A stretch of 64,000 nt of DNA, taken from positions 66,963 to 130,962 of the forward strand of contig CAZRRH010000003.1 of assembly GCA_964602665.1 (NCBI GenBank), read 5' to 3'. The translations under genes and the position numbers were made by a program. Under the pieces are notes generated by a model. The model ran no database searches. It was given only the letters and a program-made list of their open reading frames with translations, and was not told where the DNA came from. Below are positions 2,027 through 12,676 of the stretch, piece after piece. Every line of letters starts with the position of its first letter. The stretch's first letter is position 1. Source of the stretch: an uncultured Candidatus Saccharibacteria bacterium (GTDB taxonomy: Bacteria; Patescibacteriota; Dojkabacteria; SC72; WJKH01).

Positions 2027-2931
2027 TTCTTTATACCTATTATTTTAATTGGTTCATCCGTTCCTGTGTTAAAAGCATAAATGACTCTTGGAAACAAGTA
2101 ATCTGTGCTCTGTAAATCGATTTTGTATACTCCATGTGGATATTCTCGCTCTGTAATAATTTCTCCTTTTGAATCTGATACCTTTACCTGTAATATTTTC
2201 TCGCTATTATCTTTTATCATAACTACAGCTTTAGGGATAGGATAATTTGATTGGTCTCTTATTGATATGTTAATAGAGTTAGGCGGAGGAGAAATCAGCG
2301 AGAAAGGGGCTTTAAAAATATCAATATTTGAATTGTTTATTAATATTTCTGGAGGTACTTTTATCTGTTGTGGTATAGAAGTGCTTGTTGTAGCTGTTGA
2401 TGCCACAGCAGTTTCTTTCTCTTTTACAATCGTGGCTCCTTGCGCGATTTTATTTAGCTCTAGTTTTTTTTGACTCTCTTCCATCTCAATTTTATCTTCA
2501 GCTTGCTCTTTTTGCTGTATGGTTTTAGTTGACGAGCCAATTATCTTAGGATCTTGTTTAACGGCTTGCTGATTTTTGGCGTCGGCAAGGGCAACTGTAG
2601 CGCTTGAGTCTTTAAAAATGCTGTGGTCTAGATAGTCACTTCTCCATACTCTCAAAGTAGGCGAGCTTACGGATTTAATGAAATTTTTAAGGTAGACATC
2701 AGCTTTTTGATCATTAATTGGTACCAAACCAAGAAATGCCCCTGTACCAGAAGACAATAAAAAAATTGGTATGGCAATCCATCCGGGAATTGTGCGGTTT
2801 GACATAAGATATAGGAAAATGACTCCAAAGCCTAGACCTATTGCGATATATGCAAACTCTCTTATCGTAAAATGGGAGAAGAGTTTGAACTCTATATCAA
2901 GTATATTTTGTGGTATAGGATGTTGCTTCAT
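2023..2931 (-). CDS. membrane protein with N-terminal two-TM hairpin (possible VirB3/TcpE/PrgI-like T4SS component)
   Basis: 302-aa ORF. Two hydrophobic helices near the N-terminus (FAYIAIGLGFGVIFLYLMS and IPGWIAIPIFLLSSGTGAFLGLV). First gene of a three-gene minus-strand operon ending in the VirB4-like ATPase. Confidence 0.35.
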   Translation of the reverse strand: MKQHPIPQNILDIEFKLFSHFTIREFAYIAIGLGFGVIFLYLMSNRTIPGWIAIPIFLLSSGTGAFLGLVPINDQKADVYLKNFIKSVSSPTLRVWRSDYLDHSIFKDSSATVALADAKNQQAVKQDPKIIGSSTKTIQQKEQAEDKIEMEESQKKLELNKIAQGATIVKEKETAVASTATTSTSIPQQIKVPPEILINNSNIDIFKAPFSLISPPPNSINISIRDQSNYPIPKAVVMIKDNSEKILQVKVSDSKGEIITEREYPHGVYKIDLQSTDYLFPRVIYAFNTGTDEPIKIIGIKK

Positions 2932-2951
2932 AATTTGTTATACTATTTTAT

Positions 2952-3587
2952 ATGAAAAAGAAAAGTTTTGCAAAGCAGTATAGTAATTTTAATAATATGA
3001 AGGAATTTAGAGCAAATGTTTTAAAAAGTTATAATAGGAAATTAGGAGATGTAAAAGATGGTGATTTTGATGCCTTATTTAAGTCGGGTTTACTCCCTTG
3101 TGACAGAAAAGAAGTTGATCGAAAGCTAGAAATCGCGAATAAAAATCTCTCTAAGATATTGCATCATAAATTTTGTACAAAAATAGCGATAAGCGGTTCT
3201 ACTGCCGTCGGATGTCCAAGAGTTGATGATGATATTGACATATTTGTGATTGTTAGAGATAACACTCTCTGGCTATATCGGATGTGGTTCAAACTTTTTG
3301 GTGGGAAAGCCGTAGCCAGGAGGCTTGACAATGTCCGCAAAGACAAATTTTGTGTCAATTTTATTGTGGAAGAAAGTGCCCTTGATAATGTTATTAACAA
3401 CAGTGTGTTTTATCAGCATGAGATGGCTTGCCTTATTACTTTATGGGAAGCAAGCGAGCCTACCAAACCCATTTCATCGGCGATTAAAGTAGCCAATTTA
3501 TTTGCCTATTGGTTGCAGATGCTTTCTAGGTTAGTTTTTGGTGGACATGTTGTACATGATATGCGAGTTGTGCAAGAGTGGAAGTGA
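2952..3587 (+). CDS. nucleotidyltransferase-fold protein (Pol-beta superfamily; minimal NTase/ANT-like)
   Basis: Motif ISGSTAVGCPRVDDDIDIFVIV fits hG[GS]x9-13Dh[DE]h of Pol-beta-type nucleotidyltransferases. 211 aa. The true start may be the internal Met at about 2997. Confidence 0.45.
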   Translation: MKKKSFAKQYSNFNNMKEFRANVLKSYNRKLGDVKDGDFDALFKSGLLPCDRKEVDRKLEIANKNLSKILHHKFCTKIAISGSTAVGCPRVDDDIDIFVIVRDNTLWLYRMWFKLFGGKAVARRLDNVRKDKFCVNFIVEESALDNVINNSVFYQHEMACLITLWEASEPTKPISSAIKVANLFAYWLQMLSRLVFGGHVVHDMRVVQEWK

Positions 3588-3595
3588 TTAGAGGA

Positions 3596-4144
3596 TTAGT
3601 CGAAAAGTGCTGTATCATAAGTAATATCTAACCAAGTATATGCGCGTGACAGTTGTATAGGGTCTTCACAAATAGCGGTAAAGCTTTTAAAAGTAAGTAC
3701 TGGAGAACTTGATACAAATCTTTTATCATCATAGTCTGAAACTTCGTCTGATTCTTCATAAGTGAGTTTTTTTGGATCTTCAAGATTCCAAGTTACGTCT
3801 AAAGTATGTCCTTCTAGACTATCCCGTACCTTTAGAGAACAAGGTACGCATACTAGCATATTGTCTTGATCTATTCCGACGGCGACATAATCAGTATTTT
3901 CATCTGCTCTATTCACTTGAACAACGAAATAAGCTCTTTTTTCAGTTATTTTAACACCTTTGGCTACGTCTATACCATCTTTTCCAGGATCTTCGAATAA
4001 AACACTATGAACAATTGCACTTAAGCCATTATAACGCGGTGTTTCCAAGACGGTTTGTATAGCTCTATCTGCGGCAGTAAGCAAATCTTTCTCTCTTTTG
4101 TCTCTTTCTCCTATACCAACTATATTTGTCAAATTCGGTGCCAT
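3596..4144 (-). CDS. hypothetical protein
   Basis: 182-aa ORF convergent with the NTase gene (9-bp gap). No recognisable motifs. Confidence 0.3.
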   Translation of the reverse strand: MAPNLTNIVGIGERDKREKDLLTAADRAIQTVLETPRYNGLSAIVHSVLFEDPGKDGIDVAKGVKITEKRAYFVVQVNRADENTDYVAVGIDQDNMLVCVPCSLKVRDSLEGHTLDVTWNLEDPKKLTYEESDEVSDYDDKRFVSSSPVLTFKSFTAICEDPIQLSRAYTWLDITYDTALFD

Positions 4145-4252
4145 AATAATTCAATTAAAATTTAGGTTATATAGTATAATTATATCACAGACAATGCCTG
4201 CGCGTCAATAGATAATTTTATGGCTAGATTATAAGATTAGATGACAATTAAA

Positions 4253-5323
4253 TCATGTTAAACTAATCTTATTAGCTTTTCTGATCTTAATCTCATCTCT
4301 TATGCCCGAGATAAAAACTTGCTGATTCTTTATAAACTTATTATTAAAAATCCGTCTAATTTTATTGTCGTCAAGCTCAGATTGTAAGTCGTCGAGTATT
4401 AAGATAGGGTACTGTCCAAGCATGTTCTTATAAAGCTCCTGTAAGCAGAAGATAAAAGAGCCGATAACAAAGCGTTTTTCTCCTCTAGAGCCGTATTTAT
4501 GGATATCTCGATCAAAGCCAAAAAGATGCCAATCATCTCGATGGGCACCGTATAGGGAGTATCCTATTGCGATTTCTCGCCTAATGTTTTTGCTATAAAT
4601 GTCGTTGTGCTTTTTTATGAGTGATTTCTTGTCCAGCATATCCTCGAAATCTCCTAATCCAAGTGATGATTTATACTCTATAAATCCATCTTTCTCTAAC
4701 ACAGAATTTATTTCTGTTATGAAGTTGCTTCTTTTAAAAATAATATCACTACTTATCTGAGCTAACTTTTGTGTCCATATTGATAAATCGACATTTTTTT
4801 CATCTACAGCACCTGTTTTATAGAAAATTTCGGCAAGTTTTTTAAGTTGTTTATTTCTTTGGCGAAGTGTTTTTGAAAAAGTGTTTAGTTCAAAAGCATA
4901 TTTATAATCAATATTACAGATTATATCGTCAAGAAATTTGCGTCGAGCAGAAGGAGATAGCATTAATATGTCGATTTGTTCTGGGGAGAAGAGATTTGAT
5001 TTAGTATATGAGCTAAACTTAGTAACGCCTTTTTTTTTGCCATTAATAAGATATTTGCAAGATGTTTTGTTGTAAATAATACTTTTGCAACTTTTATCGC
5101 TAAAAACAGCCTCTACCTTAAAGAAGTCATCCTCCCAATTTAATATATCACTTAAATCGTTGGTAAATGGAGATTTTCCGTTTGTTAGCAAACTAATCGC
5201 TTCGATACAGCTACTTTTACCACTTCCATTGTCTCCAATTAGGATATTGACACCGTCTGTGAAATCAAACTGGATATTTTTAAATTTGCGAAAATTTTGT
5301 AACTGTAGACTCTGCAAATACAT
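4253..5323 (-). CDS. recF: DNA replication and repair protein RecF
   Basis: N-terminal LQLQNFRKF...ILIGDNGSGKSS Walker A; SRGEKR signature-like motif; ILILDDLQSELD Walker B. Size (356 aa) typical. Confidence 0.8.
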   Translation of the reverse strand: MYLQSLQLQNFRKFKNIQFDFTDGVNILIGDNGSGKSSCIEAISLLTNGKSPFTNDLSDILNWEDDFFKVEAVFSDKSCKSIIYNKTSCKYLINGKKKGVTKFSSYTKSNLFSPEQIDILMLSPSARRKFLDDIICNIDYKYAFELNTFSKTLRQRNKQLKKLAEIFYKTGAVDEKNVDLSIWTQKLAQISSDIIFKRSNFITEINSVLEKDGFIEYKSSLGLGDFEDMLDKKSLIKKHNDIYSKNIRREIAIGYSLYGAHRDDWHLFGFDRDIHKYGSRGEKRFVIGSFIFCLQELYKNMLGQYPILILDDLQSELDDNKIRRIFNNKFIKNQQVFISGIRDEIKIRKANKISLT

Positions 5324-7234: not shown

Positions 7235-7606
7235 TTAAAATTTAAAATTTGTCTTAGTCCTAATTTTATTCGCGTAAATCGTCATATCGTAAAAATAGTT
7301 ATTAAAAAATTGCTCATCAGAATTATACTGATTATCACCTTTATAAAAATCTAACCAGAACTCCTTAAGCCGACAAAGCTCCTGAAGATAGCCAAGCATT
7401 TTTTTATCTATTGCGTATTCAATTGATATGTAAAAGAGATCCATTGCTCTTAAATATGCTGAATTGGCGATCTCCTTATCTAGTTTCTTCCACTTCATTG
7501 CTCGAAATACTTCGCTCCCAATGTTTGCAAGTTGCTCTGCAGTATGCATTTGATACCATTTGTCCTTATCTACATGGGATTTATATTTATTTTGTGACTT
7601 TTTCAT
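7235..7606 (-). CDS. hypothetical protein
   Basis: 123-aa ORF, no motifs recognised. Confidence 0.3.
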   Translation of the reverse strand: MKKSQNKYKSHVDKDKWYQMHTAEQLANIGSEVFRAMKWKKLDKEIANSAYLRAMDLFYISIEYAIDKKMLGYLQELCRLKEFWLDFYKGDNQYNSDEQFFNNYFYDMTIYANKIRTKTNFKF

Positions 7607-7750: not shown

Positions 7751-8056
7751 ATGGAGCAATTTCATATATATCAGAAACAGATACTAAAAAGCTTAATGTA
7801 TAAATCTTCATTAAGATTTAATGAACTAATGATTCCAGAATTGTCTTCTAAGCATTTTAATTATCATCTTAAGAAGCTTATCGAAGGTGGCTATGTGACA
7901 AATAAAAACAGGCAGTATGTTTTAACAGATGAGGGTAAAGAGCTTGTAAAACGAAAAGATCTATTTAATACATTTTCAGATAAACTAGAATTTGTAAGAA
8001 ATCCTCAAAAAGGAGTACAATTCAGGGAGATAATTACAGAGGCAGAGGGCTATTAG
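7751..8056 (+). CDS. small winged-helix-like DNA-binding protein (putative transcriptional regulator)
   Basis: 101 aa. Pattern LRFNELMIPELSSKHFNYHLKKLIEGGYV...YVLTDEGKELV resembles a wHTH recognition helix plus wing. Confidence 0.3.
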   Translation: MEQFHIYQKQILKSLMYKSSLRFNELMIPELSSKHFNYHLKKLIEGGYVTNKNRQYVLTDEGKELVKRKDLFNTFSDKLEFVRNPQKGVQFREIITEAEGY

Positions 8057-8140
8057 GAATACTTATAAAAACATGGAAGAATTACAAAGAGTTAAAACAT
8101 TTTTAGAATTTGATAAGTTACAAAATAAATATAGGCGTAA

Positions 8141-8198: not shown

Positions 8199-9227
8199 AT
8201 GAAGAAAAAATCTTTATTAATAAGTTACTTCTTTGTTTCGGGTCTGTTTCTAATGACCTGTCTTTTATTAGGAAGGAATTTTAAAGTATCAGCAACAAGT
8301 ACTCCCCCTATTACTGATCAGGTATCAATATTAGATCAGATATACACGAGATTAGTTACAAGCGGATTTGGTACGGAGTCATCAGGAGATCATGGTAATT
8401 TTGGTGTAAAATGGAATAGAATAGCAAGTAGTGCGTATTGGATACCAGATGGAGATGCAACTGCAGAAGATGTTGTAACGGGAAAAACCTTTTATGGAGG
8501 TAACAGAACAGAACAAACGGGAACATTGTCATTAACAGGAGATGCTACGGTTGATGATGTAGTTTCTGGAAAGACATTTTATTCAGATTCATTCACTAAA
8601 TTAACAGGTACAGCACCCGAACCAATAGATTTTTCTCTTATGCAATTTAATGAATATGATGATTATGAAGGATTAGCAACTGGTAGTATTGATCCAACAA
8701 ACCCGATAGATGATTACGAAGGAGATGAAGCTATATGGACAAATACATCGACAAATGTATGGAAGGATGAACGAACAGGTCTTTTCTGGAGTGCAGATGT
8801 AAGCACTTTGGGATTGGGACTTCCAGCAACATATTCTAATGCTTTTCCTAATCAAGTCCATACAACTTGCCCATTCTTTTCTTCCAATCCAAGAGCTAGC
8901 TATGATGGACTAACAGCCTCATGTGGTAACGCTATAAATGTATGTGGAACATTATCATATGATAGGGACAATGATGGAGAAGCAGAGACGGACTGGTATC
9001 TACCAACTCAAAAAGAATTAATGCAGGCCTACATAGATGGTATGTATAATCAAGCAGGAGCTAATCTAGAAGGCGCGGCGACATTTACCACTACAAACTT
9101 TTTCTGGTCCTCCTCGGAGGTGTCCTTCTATCCTACGAACGCATGGGGCGTTTCCCTGCTCGTCGGCAACACGAACCTCAACGCTAAGGCAAGTACTTTC
9201 GCTGTGCGTTGTGTTTCTCGGGACTGA
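8199..9227 (+). CDS. DGR target protein: N-terminally membrane-anchored surface protein with C-terminal DUF1566/C-type-lectin-fold-like variable domain
   Basis: N-terminal TM/signal (LLISYFFVSGLFLMTCLLLG). Internal GKTFY repeat motifs. C-terminal DWYLPTQKEL...FWSSSEVS...NAWGVSLLVGNTN...FAVRCVSRD matches the conserved DGR-target lectin-fold motif pattern. The last about 41 codons are the VR. Confidence 0.8.
   Translation: MKKKSLLISYFFVSGLFLMTCLLLGRNFKVSATSTPPITDQVSILDQIYTRLVTSGFGTESSGDHGNFGVKWNRIASSAYWIPDGDATAEDVVTGKTFYGGNRTEQTGTLSLTGDATVDDVVSGKTFYSDSFTKLTGTAPEPIDFSLMQFNEYDDYEGLATGSIDPTNPIDDYEGDEAIWTNTSTNVWKDERTGLFWSADVSTLGLGLPATYSNAFPNQVHTTCPFFSSNPRASYDGLTASCGNAINVCGTLSYDRDNDGEAETDWYLPTQKELMQAYIDGMYNQAGANLEGAATFTTTNFFWSSSEVSFYPTNAWGVSLLVGNTNLNAKASTFAVRCVSRD
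9102..9224 (+). repeat. DGR variable repeat (VR) at 3' end of target gene
   Basis: 123 nt aligning gap-free with 9532-9654. The 5' 24 nt and 3' 24 nt are identical. All 22 mismatches lie where the other copy has A. Locally GC-rich (A-depleted). Confidence 0.85.
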
Positions 9228-9531
9228 TATGATTAGAATTTGATAATTTTCAACTTAAAATTTCCCCGTGGGATATTTAGGGCTATTGACATATACCTTA
9301 TCAATTGGTATCTTACAACTGTGCGTGGATTCTACCATTTCAATCCCCAAGACGGGCAATGGATAGTAGAGAAGGCTTGATTATCAGTCCGTTCCACTAC
9401 ACCCTGTGAGACATTTTTGGTTTTTACAGGGTATTATTATTCAACAAACCTTTTCTGTCGCAATACAGATCAGTTTTGTGGTGTGTCAGATGATTTTCAT
9501 CTGAACAAAGTCAGTGGAAAACAATGTTGTG

Positions 9532-9654
9532 TTCTGGTCCTCCTCGGAGGTGTCCAACAATCCTACAAACGCATGGAACGTAAACCTGAACAACGGCAAC
9601 ACGAACAACAACAATAAGACAAATACAAACGCTGTGCGTTGTGTTTCTCGGGAC
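9532..9654 (+). repeat. DGR template repeat (TR)
   Basis: 123-nt copy of the VR that is rich in AAC/AAT codons. Every VR/TR difference is an A in this copy. Non-coding position between target gene and avd. Confidence 0.85.
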
Positions 9655-9666
9655 TTATTTTCAAGC

Positions 9667-10029
9667 CTATACGCTTTTTTGTTTCTGAGCCCATGTATAC
9701 CACCCGTAAAGCATTTTGGCGATCTCTTCGTTTTGAGACATTATGTAAGTGTATTGTTTATGAGTGATAAGTTTTAGTTCATGAGCCATACGCAGTCTTG
9801 ATTTCAGTTTGTCAAATGAAGCTGAGGTATTGCGAATGGTCTTAGTTTTCTCAATGTTTGACAGGACATTAGTTGAAATAATCCCATCGAGTACATCCCA
9901 TGTACATTTAAGAATATCTTGTCCAAGTGTGTACTTGTATTCCTTCCTGAAGTTTTTCACAAGTAGATACAAATATTTCAAAAGCTTGTACACGGCTATA
10001 TATAAGGGGAGTTCATCTAAATTGCTCAT
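9667..10029 (-). CDS. avd: DGR accessory variability determinant (Avd, four-helix-bundle protein)
   Basis: 120 aa. N-terminal LPLYIAVYKLLKYLYLLVKNFRKEYKYTLGQDI matches the Avd/four-helix-bundle consensus (LPVYK...KNFPKEEKY.L..QI). Overlaps the RT gene by 4 bp. Confidence 0.8.
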   Translation of the reverse strand: MSNLDELPLYIAVYKLLKYLYLLVKNFRKEYKYTLGQDILKCTWDVLDGIISTNVLSNIEKTKTIRNTSASFDKLKSRLRMAHELKLITHKQYTYIMSQNEEIAKMLYGWYTWAQKQKSV

Positions 10030-11228
10030 TTTTGTTTTTTAACTAAAATAAAATATGAAAAATTGTCATCTATTGGAACCAAGTAATTTTTCAAAGTTCC
10101 AAAATGATTTTCATACAGATCTCTACGAAGATTGAAGCAGTTTGCATGTTTAAAATGTCCGTAGTAAGAATTAACCATAGCTAACATCTTTTTAAGCTCC
10201 TTTTCTGTCGGAGGAGTAGATAATGGTAATGCCATCTGTTTTTGATTTTGGGAAACAAGTAGTTTTCCTTTATTGAAATAGTGAAGCTTTGTTTTGAGGT
10301 TTTGAACAACACGCTTTCGAGCAAGTGCATATTTAGGCTTAACTATATAACCAATGAAATCTATTCCCGAATAAACGGAGTTGTATTTATCTTTGTTCGG
10401 ATGAAGTGTCAGTTTTAGTCTTTTCTGCAAAAATGTGTCAATTTGGTCTCTCCATGATTTGATCTTATCAAGATCATTTGAAAGAATGATAAAATCATCG
10501 ACATATCGGACGTAATATTTGATTTTCAATTCACGTTTTATAAATTGATCGAGCTCATTCAAGTACACATTAGCAAAAAACTGAGAAGTAAGATTCCCTA
10601 TAGGAAGCCCCTTGTCTTTCCCAGCATTAAAAAGCGTTTTGTGGGGCGGTATCTGTTTTAAAAGTGCCTGATCGCCTTTAAAGTAGAAATTCTTAGTTGG
10701 ATTATGATTAATAATTATTTGGGTAAGCCAGATTAAATCAGCTTGTTTTTTGATAGGAAAATTTCTCATAATATATCTGATTATGATTTTTTTCAAAATA
10801 TCCTTGTCAATGCTTGCAAAAAAGCTTCTGATATCAAACTGACCGTAGTAAGCTGTGATCGTGTTGTTTTTAGTTGCAGAGCGGATCATTTTTTGAGTAT
10901 AGGTAATTGCTAATTGTAAGCCTTTCATTTTTCTACAGGCAAAAGAAGCATATATAAAACTTTTTTCAAAATATGGCTCTAGGGTAGAAACCAACAAGTG
11001 ATGAACAATCCGGTCTCTAAAGTCAGCTGCAAAAACTTCTCTCAATTTGGGGTATGTGACAACAAAACAAATAGATCTATCAGGTTTATATGTTCTATCT
11101 TGCAGTTCTTCAAAAAGCTTCAGTAAATTTGACTCGAATTTCATTTCGAACCTAAGGGCGTTGATAGTAGTTCTTTTATTCTTTCTGCATGAGTAATATG
11201 CTTTTAGTAAATTTTCGAGTGTAAACAT
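10026..11228 (-). CDS. DGR reverse transcriptase
   Basis: 400 aa. RT motifs including YVRYVDDFIIL (the YxDD box). Lies downstream of avd and adjacent to the TR/VR pair. Confidence 0.9.
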   Translation of the reverse strand: MFTLENLLKAYYSCRKNKRTTINALRFEMKFESNLLKLFEELQDRTYKPDRSICFVVTYPKLREVFAADFRDRIVHHLLVSTLEPYFEKSFIYASFACRKMKGLQLAITYTQKMIRSATKNNTITAYYGQFDIRSFFASIDKDILKKIIIRYIMRNFPIKKQADLIWLTQIIINHNPTKNFYFKGDQALLKQIPPHKTLFNAGKDKGLPIGNLTSQFFANVYLNELDQFIKRELKIKYYVRYVDDFIILSNDLDKIKSWRDQIDTFLQKRLKLTLHPNKDKYNSVYSGIDFIGYIVKPKYALARKRVVQNLKTKLHYFNKGKLLVSQNQKQMALPLSTPPTEKELKKMLAMVNSYYGHFKHANCFNLRRDLYENHFGTLKNYLVPIDDNFSYFILVKKQK

Positions 11229-11503: not shown

Positions 11504-12676
11504 ATGCTTAGTATGAAAAAATTAACAAAAATTTATCTTTTTCTTTTAATATTTTTATTACTTCCTCCAATTGCCTTCGCTTCTTCACCAACCTATCTTG
11601 GAGGAACAGCCAATGTTCCAAGTACGGCGGGTTCGTTATATCTAAATACGAACAATGCATCAGTATCTTTAGATACTGAAACTGGAAATCTTTCAGGTTA
11701 TGGATGGTCAGATGATATTGGCTGGATTGATTTTGATAATGCAGGTGAAATTGCAACTTCAGCAAAAATAAACATGACAACAGGTATATTTGAGGGAAAG
11801 GCTGTAGCAGTAAATACAGGTAAATATCTTGATTTCTCCAATTATGGTAGCAATGTAAAACTGAATTTTGGCTTGAAAGAAATCACAGGTTATGGTTGGT
11901 CTGAAGATATTGGCTGGATAGATTTTAATGGAGTAATACTATATAGTGCAGATAGTGCAATTAAACCAGTTATAACTCAAATAGGGCTTATAAAAAGCAT
12001 TCCTGACAAAGATAAGCTTTACTACTATTTTACAGCAAATAGGGTTCGTATATGGGGAACCAGTGAAAAATATAGTGAAATCTTCTTTGCACATTCAAAT
12101 GGAACAACATACAAAACTCAGGCAGATATTGATGGTAAATTTTATATAGTAATTGATCTATTGAATGGAGAGAATGAATTAACATATTACAGTATTAATC
12201 TCGCATCAAATCGTTCAATAAATAAGATTTTAATATTAAATATTGATCCAACATACGGTTTAAAAACAGGAAATAATGGAGAACTAATACCGGAAGTTCA
12301 AATTGTAGAAAGTTCTGAGATAGAGACGGAAACTGTAAAGGAAAATTCTGAGGAAGTTACTCCGCCAATAGAAGCAAAGAAAATAAGGGTTATTGATTTA
12401 GATGGTAATCCGATAATAAATAAGCTAATAACGATAGAGGGAATAGATTACATCACTGATTCTTTTGGATACATCTATATAAACGAAGAGATAGTAGGAG
12501 ATTTTGTTCTTTACGACGGAAAATCTTATCCTATTAAGCTATCAGGAGAGGATCTAATTTTGGATTTATCAAGTCAGAAAGGAAGTTTTAACTATCTGTA
12601 CTGCTTTTTCCCTTTGATAGCTTTACTACTTATCGTTTTGACAGTGGTTATTGTCCGTAGAAAAAAGATATCATAA
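11504..12676 (+). CDS. secreted/cell-surface repeat protein with C-terminal membrane anchor
   Basis: Signal peptide (LFLLIFLLLPPIAFASS). Two GYGWS(D/E)DIGWIDF(D/N) repeats. C-terminal hydrophobic helix plus RRKK tail. Confidence 0.45.
   Translation: MLSMKKLTKIYLFLLIFLLLPPIAFASSPTYLGGTANVPSTAGSLYLNTNNASVSLDTETGNLSGYGWSDDIGWIDFDNAGEIATSAKINMTTGIFEGKAVAVNTGKYLDFSNYGSNVKLNFGLKEITGYGWSEDIGWIDFNGVILYSADSAIKPVITQIGLIKSIPDKDKLYYYFTANRVRIWGTSEKYSEIFFAHSNGTTYKTQADIDGKFYIVIDLLNGENELTYYSINLASNRSINKILILNIDPTYGLKTGNNGELIPEVQIVESSEIETETVKENSEEVTPPIEAKKIRVIDLDGNPIINKLITIEGIDYITDSFGYIYINEEIVGDFVLYDGKSYPIKLSGEDLILDLSSQKGSFNYLYCFFPLIALLLIVLTVVIVRRKKIS

What the first reader, a model, noticed from the sequence alone, without database searches (positions are those of the whole stretch)
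9102..9654. VR/TR pair: 22 of 22 mismatches at template adenines, with identical GC-rich ends
In the gap-free 123-nt alignment every difference is TR-A to VR-N. For example TR AACAAT becomes VR TTCTAT, AAC becomes GGC, AACAAC becomes CTCGTC and AAT becomes GCT. Most are in AAC/AAT codons, which is the DGR hallmark for sampling chemically diverse residues. The first 24 nt and the last 24 nt (GCTGTGCGTTGTGTTTCTCGGGAC) are identical between the copies. The 3' block is markedly GC-rich relative to its AT-rich surroundings, as expected of an IMH-like homing boundary. Because so many template adenines differ in VR, the system has probably been active on this sequence.
Basis: seen in the sequence. 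Interest (0 to 1): 0.8.

Follow-up and report, generated by a model that had tools for sequence, protein, structure and literature searches.

The report
Active diversity-generating retroelement, upstream RNA scaffold
This is a working diversity-generating retroelement in an uncultured ultra-small (CPR/Patescibacteria) bacterium that keeps rewriting the tip of a surface protein; its template RNA carries its folded helper segment in front of the template, not behind it as in the textbook Bordetella phage system.

Summary
VR (9102-9225) and TR (9532-9655) align without gaps, and all 22 mismatches sit at TR adenines (p about 4e-14). VR ends a DUF1566/Lcl_C surface-protein gene, and an Avd gene and a DGR-type reverse transcriptase lie next door on the opposite strand. 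Four further alleles from other metagenomes have an identical TR but different VRs, with 147 of 148 mismatches at TR adenines, so the element is active.

The DGR itself is ordinary for CPR bacteria. Opposite-strand TR and RT are already documented. The cis RNA is less ordinary. There is no room for a Bordetella-type 3' spacer. Instead a ~210-nt structured leader with its own promoter precedes TR (9320-9531). Its helices covary strongly, and one leader strand pairs with the 3' end of TR plus the short trailer. A covariance model finds the element directly 5' of TR in about 80 of 161 related loci, across gene orders and phyla. It finds nothing in phage BPP-1, and Rfam has no match.

The order of elements matches the Bordetella spacer with the chain broken elsewhere, so I read it as a circular permutation with a retron-like topology. 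That reading is inferred, not shown. I also found an 8-nt-periodic TTTGR array just downstream of VRs.

The parts
8199..9227 (+). Target gene (342 aa): N-terminal hydrophobic signal/anchor with a lipobox-like LMTC, two ~29-aa repeats, and a C-terminal Lcl_C/DUF1566 domain that holds VR
   Evidence: ORF and translation; Pfam PF07603 3.1e-13 over residues 188-339; 286 homologues, named ones annotated as DUF1566 proteins of Patescibacteria/Dojkabacteria. The signal/lipobox reading is by eye.
9102..9225 (+). Variable repeat (VR), codons 302-342 of the target, ending at the stop codon
   Evidence: 22/22 mismatches to TR at TR adenines. Five different alleles in public assemblies, all differing from TR at A positions apart from one G>T.
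9235..9250 (+). AGAATTTGATAATTTT: the window's copy of the TTTGR motif that follows VRs in this DGR clade. Candidate target-site mark; function inferred.
   Evidence: Found once per locus, always just 3' of VR, in L006, L008, L085, L088 and all alleles. The clade-wide 8-nt periodic array is enriched after VR and not after TR.
9263..9273 (+). Small hairpin TCCC-CGT-GGGA followed by T-rich sequence: a weak terminator-like end of the target transcript
   Evidence: Read from sequence. Relatives have stronger GC hairpins at the same place. It did not pass the simple terminator scan.
9286..9314 (+). Promoter-like site for the TR RNA: TTGACA, 17 nt, TATCTT with TG before the -10
   Evidence: Scan hit with 10 of 12 matches. 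A -35/-10 pair sits at the same distance from the conserved leader start in L085, L006, L088 and L008.
9320..9531 (+). Structured leader of the DGR RNA. P1/P2 9330-9371; strand X 9373-9380; candidate primer strand ATCAGTCC 9383-9390 plus G9391; P4 5' strand 9392-9398; hairpin P5 9401-9432; A/U-rich single strand 9433-9443; long stem P6 9444-9479 with inner hairpin 9454-9469; variable hairpin P7 9486-9504; P4 3' strand 9513-9519.
   Evidence: MAFFT alignment of 11 leaders: 92.7% of cells paired against about 42% in slid controls, 25/33 pairs with compensatory changes, 0/500 shuffles. Model-fitted alignment of 33 distinct sequences: 95.2%, 22/22 pairs. CM hit at window 9372-9522 +, 96 bits. Single-sequence MFE reproduces the helices, z = -4.64. 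0 differences in 306 nt in an allele whose target gene differs at 29 of 903 nt. Coordinates.
9532..9655 (+). Template repeat (TR), non-coding and invariant. 42 adenines in the 127 aligned nt (124-nt TR plus 3 flanking). Rich in AAC/AAT.
   Evidence: Identical in all five alleles.
9650..9668 (+). 3' end of TR plus trailer. G9650 is the candidate first templated base. GGACTTAT 9651-9658 pairs with leader 9383-9390. TCAAGCCT 9661-9668 (X') pairs with leader X 9373-9380. A T-run follows at 9675-9680.
   Evidence: Duplex of -22.7 kcal/mol in the window. Cognate leader/trailer pairs average -20.6 against -12.6 kcal/mol for non-cognate pairs, 0/20000 permutations. Compensatory forms seen: AGTCC:GGACT, AGTTT:AAACT, AATCC:GGATT, TGTCC:GGACA.
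9667..10029 (-). avd (120 aa), accessory variability determinant. Its stop codon lies 11 nt from the end of TR, on the opposite strand.
   Evidence: PF22296 bAvd 3.6e-17. NF033474 DivGenRetAVD 4e-19, 68.9 bits, below the curated cut-off of 80.
10026..11228 (-). DGR reverse transcriptase (400 aa), overlapping avd by 4 nt
   Evidence: RVT_1 9.2e-16. IGNLTSQFFAN and YVDD are invariant among 30 relatives. Best PDB match is bRT 8ub7_A at 8.4e-35. Thousands of homologues, the closest named ones from Patescibacteria.

Best explanation
This is an active chromosomal diversity-generating retroelement (DGR) of a CPR/Patescibacteria bacterium.

Proposed mechanism:
1. A promoter at 9286-9314 drives a ~350-nt non-coding RNA made of leader, TR and a short trailer.
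2. The RT-Avd complex is encoded convergently on the other strand. It copies TR into cDNA and misincorporates opposite adenines.
3. The cDNA replaces VR. This rewrites up to 21 codons at the C-terminal ligand-binding face of a DUF1566/C-type-lectin-like surface protein.

What is shown: the A-only mismatch pattern, all protein components, ongoing diversification in natural populations with TR unchanged, and a conserved, covarying leader RNA whose one strand pairs with the 3' end of TR and the trailer.

What is inferred: the leader is the cis-acting scaffold that in phage BPP-1 lies 3' of TR as the spacer (Sp). The order of elements matches Sp as follows:
- primer strand (9383-9390)
- one-nucleotide linker (G9391, opposite TR G9650)
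- 'stop' duplex strand (P4)
- short hairpin (P5)
- A/U-rich single strand
- long stem-loop (P6)
- second P4 strand 12 nt before TR

The chain is broken at a different place, so it reads as a circular permutation. By this analogy cDNA synthesis would be cis-primed from the 2'-OH of C9390 or G9391, start at G9650, and stop at P4. The topology (5' strand, priming nucleotide, structured RNA, template, 3' strand pairing back) is also that of retron msr-msd RNA.

My probabilities: active DGR 0.97; leader is the DGR's cis-acting RNA 0.8; permutation and priming-site model correct in outline 0.55.
For: - VR/TR: 22/22 mismatches at TR adenines, no indels, p about 4e-14; unique pair in the window.
- Components: Lcl_C target, bAvd, RVT_1; DivGenRetAVD; IGxxxSQ motif invariant; best PDB hit bRT.
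- Activity: 12 protein alleles vary at 17 of 21 A-bearing VR codons against 1 of 20 others. Four further DNA alleles show 147 A>N and 1 G>T, with TR and the 306-nt intergenic region at 0 differences.
- Leader structure: covariation in an unfitted MAFFT alignment (92.7% paired against about 42% slid, 25/33 compensatory, 0/500 shuffles) and in 33 distinct sequences. The MFE fold reproduces it, z = -4.64.
- Leader to TR-end/trailer pairing is locus-specific: -20.6 against -12.6 kcal/mol, 0/20000 permutations.
- Position: of 58 CM hits in loci with an independent TR call, 52 end within -8 to +23 nt of the TR 5' end on the same strand, whatever the gene order.
- No room for a 3' spacer: the avd stop lies 11 nt after TR on the other strand. 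In 49 classical-order relatives the avd-to-TR gap has a median of 162 nt and the TR-to-RT gap 17 nt, against 0 and 144 in BPP-1.
- Bordetella element order and the G57:G117 apposition come from Handa et al., bioRxiv 10.1101/2023.10.23.563531, checked on the BPP-1 sequence.
Against: - No transcript, cDNA or biochemical data exist for this element. RNA ends rest on a consensus promoter and a weak T-run only.
- The correspondence to Bordetella Sp is by order, size and pairing partners, not by sequence homology. The CM does not hit BPP-1, and I could not search a permuted BPP-1 construct.
- The candidate priming nucleotide would be C or G, not A as in BPP-1.
- In three close relatives the linker is T and pairs with TR. 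In the second subgroup the primer-strand end is less clear.
- The CM misses 43 of 102 TR-called loci.
- The 5'-3' terminal helix is only weakly supported (p about 0.008).
- The 33-sequence alignment is fitted to the model and so leans towards the structure.
- The Avd score is below NCBIfam's curated cut-off.
Confidence: 0.88

Rival explanations
1. It is a canonical DGR, but the conserved upstream RNA is not its reverse-transcription scaffold. It would be an independent small RNA, a regulatory 5' leader controlling TR RNA level, or the 3' UTR or terminator region of the target gene. The true cis elements would be short flanks or lie 3' of TR, antisense to avd, as in Bordetella.
For: No experimental link exists between the leader and cDNA synthesis. 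The Handa et al. survey reports Sp-like elements downstream of TR in 207 of 278 DGRs, including CPR members. The CM misses 43 of 102 TR-called relatives.
Against: - The leader travels with TR, not with VR or the target gene: in L085 VR is more than 4 kb away on the other side of RT-avd.
- It is directly 5' of TR in five different gene orders.
- Its strand pairs with the 3' end of TR in a locus-specific, compensating way.
- What lies 3' of TR differs from one architecture to the next: antisense avd, sense avd, antisense RT or sense RT. No common 3' element is therefore possible.
- That survey looked at only 40 nt upstream of TR.
Confidence: 0.1
2. It is a relic DGR. The A-biased differences were written long ago and the element no longer works.
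For: A single genome cannot distinguish past from present activity. The Avd score is below the curated cut-off.
Against: Five VR alleles occur among assemblies whose surrounding DNA is nearly identical (1-4 differences in 903 nt, 0 in leader and TR). They differ from each other at 11-28 VR positions, all at TR adenines apart from one G>T. RT and avd ORFs are intact, and the RT is identical or 99% identical in other samples.
Confidence: 0.02
3. It is not a DGR at all. It would be an ordinary tandem duplication or gene-conversion tract with a chance or compositional bias, or an assembly artefact.
For: The region is AT-rich (window GC 34.5%), so substitutions involving A are common in general.
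Against: Placement of all 22 changes on one base of one copy has p about 4e-14. The changes go from A to all three other bases. RT and Avd are adjacent. The locus is reproduced in independent ENA and Logan assemblies.
Confidence: 0.005

Closest known systems
Bordetella phage BPP-1 DGR (mtd-avd-TR-Sp-brt), the only DGR with a solved RT-Avd-RNA structure
   Same: - Adenine-specific TR-to-VR information transfer.
- RT of the same clade (best PDB hit, 8e-35) with the IGxxxSQ motif, and an Avd partner.
- VR at the C-terminus of a lectin-like ligand-binding domain, with A-poor repeat ends.
- A cis RNA in which one strand pairs with the 3' end of TR and, after a 1-2-nt linker, with a segment just upstream of TR. 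A short hairpin, a single-stranded stretch and a long stem-loop follow.
- A G opposite the first templated G.
   Different: - Chromosomal rather than phage-borne.
- RT and avd are on the opposite strand and convergent with TR.
- The structured RNA is 5' of TR with its own promoter, instead of a 140-nt spacer 3' of TR. The RNA ends lie where BPP-1 has the Avd-binding stem-loop.
- Only an 8-13-nt trailer follows TR.
- There is no sequence or CM similarity to Sp.
- No IMH/IMH* difference lies inside the repeat, and there is no GC cruciform next to VR. A TTTGR motif follows VR instead.
CPR/DPANN DGRs and the architecture classes of Wu et al. 2018 (NAR 46:11; PMC5758913), including Legionella-type DUF1566/CLec2 targets
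   Same: - Host lineage.
- Avd-containing cassette.
- Target of category 'd' (DUF1566/CLec2).
- Components on different strands. [quoted passage not shown]
   Different: - That work classifies gene order only. It describes no TR-flanking RNA structure or VR-downstream motif in the passages I could read.
- In the window both avd and RT are reversed relative to TR. I could not check the exact subtype because the supplementary figure is not held.
Retron msr-msd non-coding RNA
   Same: Topology. A 5' strand pairs with the 3' end of the RNA, and a conserved nucleotide (G9391 here, the branching G in retrons) lies right after that duplex. Structured RNA follows, then the template, read from its 3' end. 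Priming from a 2'-OH of the same RNA is established for retrons and for BPP-1 (retron a1/a2 details are from my own knowledge).
   Different: - The RT belongs to the DGR clade. The retron family score is far below its cut-off (51 against 235 bits).
- Avd is present.
- The cDNA is not an end product but replaces a homologous gene segment.
- Mutagenesis is adenine-specific.
- No msDNA is known here.

Membership tests
Diversity-generating retroelement (DGR) | A TR/VR near-repeat pair whose differences are confined to adenines of the non-coding copy | tested here: met
   22/22 at TR-A, no indels, p about 4e-14. 147 of 148 in four further alleles.
Diversity-generating retroelement (DGR) | Adjacent reverse transcriptase of the DGR clade (motif 4 IGxxxSQ, YxDD) | tested here: met
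   RVT_1. IGNLTSQ and YVDD are invariant in 30 relatives. The nearest solved structure is bRT 8ub7 at 8.4e-35, far ahead of retron and group II RTs at about 1e-9.
Diversity-generating retroelement (DGR) | Accessory protein Avd (present in most DGRs) | tested here: met
   PF22296 at 63.3 bits, above its cut-off of 40. NF033474 at 68.9 bits, below its cut-off of 80.
Diversity-generating retroelement (DGR) | VR at the 3' end of a target ORF, in a C-type-lectin-like or Ig-like variable domain | tested here: met
   VR is codons 302-342 of a 342-aa ORF, inside the Lcl_C/DUF1566 match at residues 188-339. DUF1566 is target category d / CLec2 in Wu et al.. The fold itself was not modelled.
Diversity-generating retroelement (DGR) | Ongoing A-directed diversification of VR with an invariant TR | tested here: met
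Diversity-generating retroelement (DGR) | A-mutagenic, cis-primed cDNA synthesis by RT-Avd on the TR RNA | not testable with these tools
   Needs biochemistry or sequencing of RNA-cDNA junctions.
Bordetella-type DGR RNA (avd 3' end - TR - 140-nt 3' spacer) | A non-coding spacer of about 140 nt immediately 3' of TR carrying the Avd-binding stem-loop, primer strand, stop strand, Thumb Ring and bRT-binding stem | tested here: not met
   TR is followed after 11 nt by the avd stop codon on the opposite strand. In classical-order relatives the TR-to-RT gap has a median of 17 nt. The structured RNA is 5' of TR.
Bordetella-type DGR RNA (avd 3' end - TR - 140-nt 3' spacer) | One RNA strand pairs with the TR 3' end. 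After a 1-2-nt linker it pairs with a segment a few nt upstream of TR, so that TR is looped out. | tested here: met
   9383-9390 pairs with 9651-9658, the linker is G9391, and 9392-9398 pairs with 9513-9519, which lies 12 nt before TR. All 7 P4 pairs covary.
Bordetella-type target site (IMH plus downstream GC hairpin/cruciform) | GC-rich IMH at the VR 3' end that differs from IMH* in TR, and an inverted repeat a few nt downstream of VR | tested here: inconclusive
   The A-free 23-nt block 9630-9652 (its VR counterpart is 9200-9222) is identical in VR and TR. The copies diverge only after GGGACT. The only hairpin is a 4-bp one starting 37 nt downstream of VR (9263-9273). A TTTGR motif follows VR instead.
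Retron | Retron-clade RT with an msr-msd RNA producing msDNA | tested here: not met
   Retron St85 RT model scores 51 bits against a cut-off of 235. No Rfam retron or RT-associated motif matches at E<=10. Only the topology of the RNA resembles msr-msd.
Group II intron | Intron RNA domains flanking an RT/maturase | tested here: not met
   TIGR04416 scores 108 bits against a cut-off of 300. No group II intron RNA is found in the Rfam scans.
Any Rfam 15 family | A match of the leader to a curated covariance model | tested here: not met
   In window 9150-9800 at E<=10, only two chance-level hits on the wrong strand. No hit at E<=1 in seven related loci.

The most novel reading that the evidence does not exclude
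A large, multi-phylum clade of DGRs, including most CPR elements, uses a circularly permuted DGR RNA. The RT/Avd-binding and priming scaffold precedes the template, and the RNA closes on itself by pairing a leader strand with the 3' end of TR plus a short trailer, as in retron msr-msd. cDNA synthesis would then be primed from a leader nucleotide (C9390 or G9391 in the window). In the same clade a tandem 8-nt (T/G)NATTTGR array just 3' of each VR, absent after TR, would be the mark that directs the cDNA to VR rather than back to TR. Neither feature appears in Rfam or in the papers I could search.
Probability: 0.4. Interest if true: 0.78.

Novelty: new variant of a known kind. Interest (0 to 1): 0.6.

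Why it matters
The DGR itself is one more member of a well-known system, and DGRs are already known to abound in CPR genomes.

The mechanistic picture of DGR reverse transcription rests on a single phage element, BPP-1. The one comparative survey I could read inspected only 40 nt upstream and 100 nt downstream of TR. Here a covariation-backed RNA model places the whole scaffold upstream of TR. It holds across five gene orders and many phyla. If right, it has several consequences:
- It would explain why TR can sit on either strand and at various positions relative to RT and avd: the RNA is a self-contained unit with its own promoter.
- It may account for some DGRs in which no Sp-like element was found.
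- It gives concrete, testable nucleotides for priming and termination.
- It links DGR and retron RNA topologies.

The TTTGR array offers a candidate for target-site choice in retrohoming, which is poorly understood. Both features would also sharpen DGR annotation in metagenomes and could help design compact DGR-based mutagenesis tools.

Tried and rejected
- **More VRs.** I looked for further VRs or targets in the window with an A-masked TR pattern allowing 3 mismatches. There are none.
- **RNAalifold.** On the MAFFT alignment of 18 leaders it recovered only P6. The two leader subgroups are misaligned by 1-3 columns in P2, P4 and P5, so I restricted the hand-drawn structure to the 11 closest sequences.
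- **First covariance model.** I trimmed it to the X-to-P4 core.
- **Terminal helix.** A 5'-3' terminal helix closing the whole RNA appears in the MFE fold, but cognate-versus-non-cognate support is weak (p about 0.008). I do not count it as established.
- **Leader 5' end.** I considered that CTGTGCG near the leader start, which repeats CTGTGCG in the TR tail, might matter. It is not conserved in relatives, so I dropped it.
- **PDB by sequence.** Searches for the target and for Avd found nothing.
- **Rfam.** Nothing relevant.
- **Literature.** Searches for a permuted or upstream DGR RNA, or for covariance models of DGR RNA, found nothing. Paul et al. 2017 is not held.
- **BPP-1 fetch.** The first fetch took the wrong region and was repeated.
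- **Not attempted.** I did not build a column-wise alignment of the leader:TR-end and X:X' helices because the strands are too variable for MAFFT. I used duplex energies with permutation instead.
- **Not modelled.** I did not model the target's fold.
Full report
**1. The observation**

I read 8700-10200 and aligned the two copies exactly.
- VR 9102-9225 and TR 9532-9655 align without gaps at an offset of 430 nt.
- All 22 differences are TR-A to VR-N (11 T, 7 G, 4 C). No TR C, G or T position differs.
- The first non-A difference (9226/9656) lies just past the repeat, where VR has its TGA stop.
- With 42 adenines among 127 aligned positions, the chance of 22 of the 23 differences all landing on A is about 4e-14.
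- The repeat finder reports the same pair as its top family.
- A pattern with N at every TR adenine finds only these two sites in 64 kb, with none in shuffles.
- Eighteen of the 22 changes are in AAC/AAT codons (my count on the alignment).
- The first 24 and last 26 nt are identical. This is largely because they hold one adenine each, and 9630-9652 holds none.

**2. The components**

- VR is the last 41 codons of a 342-aa ORF (8199-9227, +). The ORF has an N-terminal hydrophobic segment and a C-terminal Lcl_C/DUF1566 domain.
- On the minus strand lie avd (9667-10029; PF22296 3.6e-17; NF033474 4e-19) and a 400-aa reverse transcriptase (10026-11228; RVT_1). The RT has IGNLTSQFFAN and YVDD motifs.
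- Those motif residues are invariant in 30 relatives.
- The nearest solved structure is the Bordetella bRT of the RT-Avd-RNA cryo-EM series (8ub7, 8.4e-35). Retron and group II RTs are far behind.
- The context is chromosomal: LepA, an alanyl-tRNA synthetase-family gene (PF01411/PF07973), RuvX and one tRNA.
- The window is 34.5% GC.
- The closest named relatives of the RT and of the target are from Patescibacteria MAGs: Dojkabacteria, Saccharibacteria and Woesebacteria.

**3. Activity**

The window is identical to a Logan contig of SRR12133403. The target protein's 90% cluster has 12 members at 92-98% identity.
- Among them, 17 of the 21 VR codons whose TR codon has A at position 1 or 2 vary, with up to nine residues per site. 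Only 1 of 20 codons without such an A varies.
- Outside VR, 24 of 301 columns vary.

I fetched the DNA of four further distinct alleles from other assemblies.
- TR is identical in all of them.
- The 306 nt between VR and TR are identical in all of them. This holds even in an allele whose target gene differs at 29 of the first 903 nt.
- The VRs differ from the window's at 11-28 positions.
- Against TR they show 147 A>N changes and a single G>T.

The element is a DGR and is active in nature.

**4. Layout, and what is already known about it**

RT and avd are on the strand opposite to VR and TR. The adenines are on the plus strand, so the template RNA must be a plus-strand transcript that converges on the avd-RT operon.

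I fetched 160 related loci, all oriented by the RT. I located their TR/VR pairs with a self-BLAST filter for A-biased mismatches, and their avd genes with jackhmmer. This one RT clade holds several gene orders:
- the classical VR-avd-TR-RT on one strand
- VR>avd>TR> <RT
- VR>TR>avd> <RT
- the window's VR>TR> <avd<RT
- VR>TR>avd>RT
- RT>TR>avd

Such variation is documented. Wu et al. [quoted passage not shown] They also state that architecture B3, TR-(avd)-RT, makes up 90% of their CPR set, and that DUF1566 targets are their category d / CLec2. The DGR and its gene order are therefore not new.

**5. A conserved structured leader 5' of TR**

When I lined up the flanks on the TR strand, the ~210 nt upstream of TR were recognisably conserved among loci whose RTs are only 50-77% identical. 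Iterated nhmmer found this region in 23 loci.

In a plain MAFFT alignment of the 11 closest leaders I drew six helices:
- 92.7% of cells pair, against 38-45% when partners are slid by 1-3 columns.
- 25 of 33 pairs have compensatory double changes.
- No shuffle out of 500 reaches the observed values.
- All seven pairs of the long-range helix P4 covary. In the window P4 is TTCCACT 9392-9398 with AGTGGAA 9513-9519.

Further support:
- The minimum-energy fold of the window's 361-nt transcript alone reproduces P1, P2, P4, P5, P6 and P7, with z = -4.64.
- A sigma-70-like promoter (TTGACA-17-TATCTT, 9286-9314) sits just before the conserved start. It recurs at the same distance in relatives.
- Rfam 15 has no match in the window or in seven relatives.

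**6. The leader pairs with the end of TR**

The leader stretch 9373-9390 (AGGCTTGA-TT-ATCAGTCC) is complementary to the 3' end of TR plus the trailer (GGACTTAT-TT-TCAAGCCT, 9651-9668).

Across 16 loci the sequences differ but the complementarity is kept. Examples are GAGCCCAAACATA / TATGTTTGGGCTC and GAGGCATAATAT / ATATTATGCCTC. At the TR end the forms are AGTCC:GGACT, AGTTT:AAACT, AATCC:GGATT and TGTCC:GGACA.

Cognate duplexes average -20.6 kcal/mol against -12.6 for non-cognate pairings, with 0 of 20,000 permutations as low.

In the window and most close relatives the duplex ends with a leader G (9391) facing the first G of the TR motif GGGA (9650).

**7. How widespread it is**

A covariance model of the X-to-P4 core scores 96 bits in the window (9372-9522, +). 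It also finds weaker hits in classical-order loci from Leptospiraceae, Nitrospinota, Desulfobacterota, Omnitrophota and others.
- The 33 distinct matches pair at 95.2%, with all 22 pairs compensated. This alignment is model-fitted.
- A second model built from them gives 82 hits in about 80 of 161 loci, and none in phage BPP-1.
- Of 58 hits in loci with an independent TR call, 52 end within -8 to +23 nt of the TR 5' end on the same strand. The model holds no TR sequence, so this is an independent check.
- In 49 classical-order relatives the avd-stop-to-TR gap has a median of 162 nt and the TR-to-RT gap 17 nt. In BPP-1 these are 0 and 144.

In this clade the non-coding RNA therefore sits in front of TR. 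In the window nothing else is possible, because the avd stop codon lies 11 nt after TR on the other strand.

**8. Comparison with the Bordetella DGR RNA**

Handa et al. (bioRxiv 10.1101/2023.10.23.563531) show that the BPP-1 spacer holds the following elements, in order:
- an Avd-binding stem-loop
- a primer strand (Sp47-56) paired with TR117-129, priming from the 2'-OH of A56
- a 2-nt linker whose G57 can face TR G117
- a strand (Sp59-70) paired with the last codons of avd just upstream of TR, which forms the cDNA stop
- a short stem-loop
- unpaired adenosines
- a single-stranded Thumb Ring
- a long bRT-binding stem-loop

I verified these segments on the BPP-1 sequence.

The window has the same series in the same order:

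| Element | Window coordinates |
|---|---|
| Primer strand | 9383-9390 |
| Linker G | 9391 |
| P4 5' strand | 9392-9398 |
| Short hairpin P5 (only 3-4 bp in many relatives) | 9401-9432 |
| A/U-rich single strand | 9433-9443 |
| Long stem P6 | 9444-9479 |
| Second P4 strand, 12 nt before TR | 9513-9519 |

The difference is in connectivity.
- In BPP-1 the chain runs from the TR end, through the Avd-binding hairpin, to the primer strand. It ends after the long stem.
- In the window the long stem is joined to the strand upstream of TR. The chain is open where BPP-1 has the Avd-binding hairpin: X:X' closes it, and P1/P2 and the RNA ends hang there.

I therefore propose a circular permutation. The resulting topology is also that of retron msr-msd RNA.

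This step is inference. It rests on order, sizes and pairing partners, not on sequence homology or experiment. That paper's own survey used only 40 nt upstream and 100 nt downstream of TR, so it would not have seen this arrangement. Four further literature searches found no description of it.

**9. Proposed mechanism**

1. The plus-strand RNA (about 9320-9680) folds.
2. RT-Avd, translated from the convergent operon, binds it.
3. cDNA synthesis is primed in cis at C9390 or G9391. It begins at G9650, runs through TR with misincorporation opposite adenines, and stops at P4.
4. The cDNA ends are copies of the A-poor blocks 9532-9555 and 9630-9650. These are error-free and identical to VR, and they guide replacement of VR.
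5. The result is a new C-terminal surface on a secreted or anchored DUF1566 protein.

Steps 1 and 2 are supported by conservation only. Steps 3 and 4 rest on analogy with BPP-1. Step 5 is shown by the population alleles.

**10. A second feature seen on the way**

Immediately 3' of VR the window has AGAATTTGATAATTTT (9235-9250). This 16-mer pattern occurs once per locus, always just after VR, in distant relatives.

Across 106 VRs of this clade:
- TTTG[GA] occurs 1.9 times in the 70 nt after VR, against 0.42 after TR and 0.28 in the background.
- The spacing peaks sharply at 8 nt.
- Of 101 distinct VR-downstream regions, 47 have two or more units spaced 7-9 nt, and up to five such units occur in a row.
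- The unit consensus is (T/G)NATTTGR.

The array marks VR and not TR, and it stays with VR when VR is far from TR (L085). It is a candidate target-site signal. I did not test this further.

**11. Verdict**

As a DGR this is a new member of a known kind, in a lineage where DGRs are common. What raises it above routine is the cis RNA: a well-supported upstream scaffold that looks like a permuted version of the Bordetella spacer and is shared by a large DGR clade. The VR-adjacent repeat array adds to this. Both need experiments.

Noticed in passing
window 9235-9250; relatives e.g. L060, L017, L041, L044, L036 just 3' of each VR: Tandem 8-nt units (T/G)NATTTGR start 0-10 nt after VR in this DGR clade, with up to five correctly spaced units in a row. 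They are enriched about 7-fold over background, absent after TR, and their spacing peaks at 8 nt. They may be a target-site mark for retrohoming.
   Followed up: partly
window 8103-8129 and 9233-9259: TTAGAATTTGATAA occurs both upstream of the target gene's promoter-like site and just downstream of VR, so it brackets the target gene as a direct repeat 1130 nt apart (family D5). Its meaning is unknown. It could be a regulator-binding site.
   Followed up: no
window 7751-8056 (+): A small winged-helix protein (HTH_45/DUF7347, weak Sso10a-family match) sits directly upstream of the target gene in every allele. It is fused to a NUDIX domain in L171. It may regulate the target.
   Followed up: no
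window 11504-12676 (+); L170 1192-2364: A 390-aa ORF has no family match and carries internal repeats (44-nt units 192 nt apart, family D3). It lies divergently next to the RT in the window but upstream of the wHTH-target pair in L170. The neighbourhood therefore rearranges between strains.
   Followed up: no
L020 about 7522-7536 and L022 about 7526-7540 (TR strand): In relatives where avd follows TR on the same strand, the trailer strand that pairs with the leader (..ATATGCCTC..) contains the avd start codon. Folding of the DGR RNA could therefore mask avd translation.
   Followed up: no
L085 (VR 141-267, RT 2807-4030, avd 3994-4389, TR 4401-4527, leader 4537-4687): In this 77%-identical relative the VR found lies more than 4 kb from TR, on the far side of RT-avd. 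The leader stays with TR and the AGAATTTGATAATTTT motif stays with VR.
   Followed up: partly
L002, L003 (1927-nt contigs from ERR4515096 and ERR4519277): Independent assemblies carrying the same or 99%-identical RT end inside TR. I read these as assembly breaks at the TR/VR repeat (my inference). DGR loci of this kind may therefore often be fragmented in metagenome assemblies.
   Followed up: no
L171 VR (window-equivalent position 9146): This is the single non-adenine difference among 148 VR-TR mismatches: G>T, which turns the conserved Trp316 into Cys. It is either an ordinary point mutation or a rare non-A error.
   Followed up: no
window 9323-9328 with about 9670-9700: The MFE fold pairs the 5' end of the leader with sequence just after the trailer, closing the whole RNA before a T-run. 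Support across relatives is weak (p about 0.008).
   Followed up: partly
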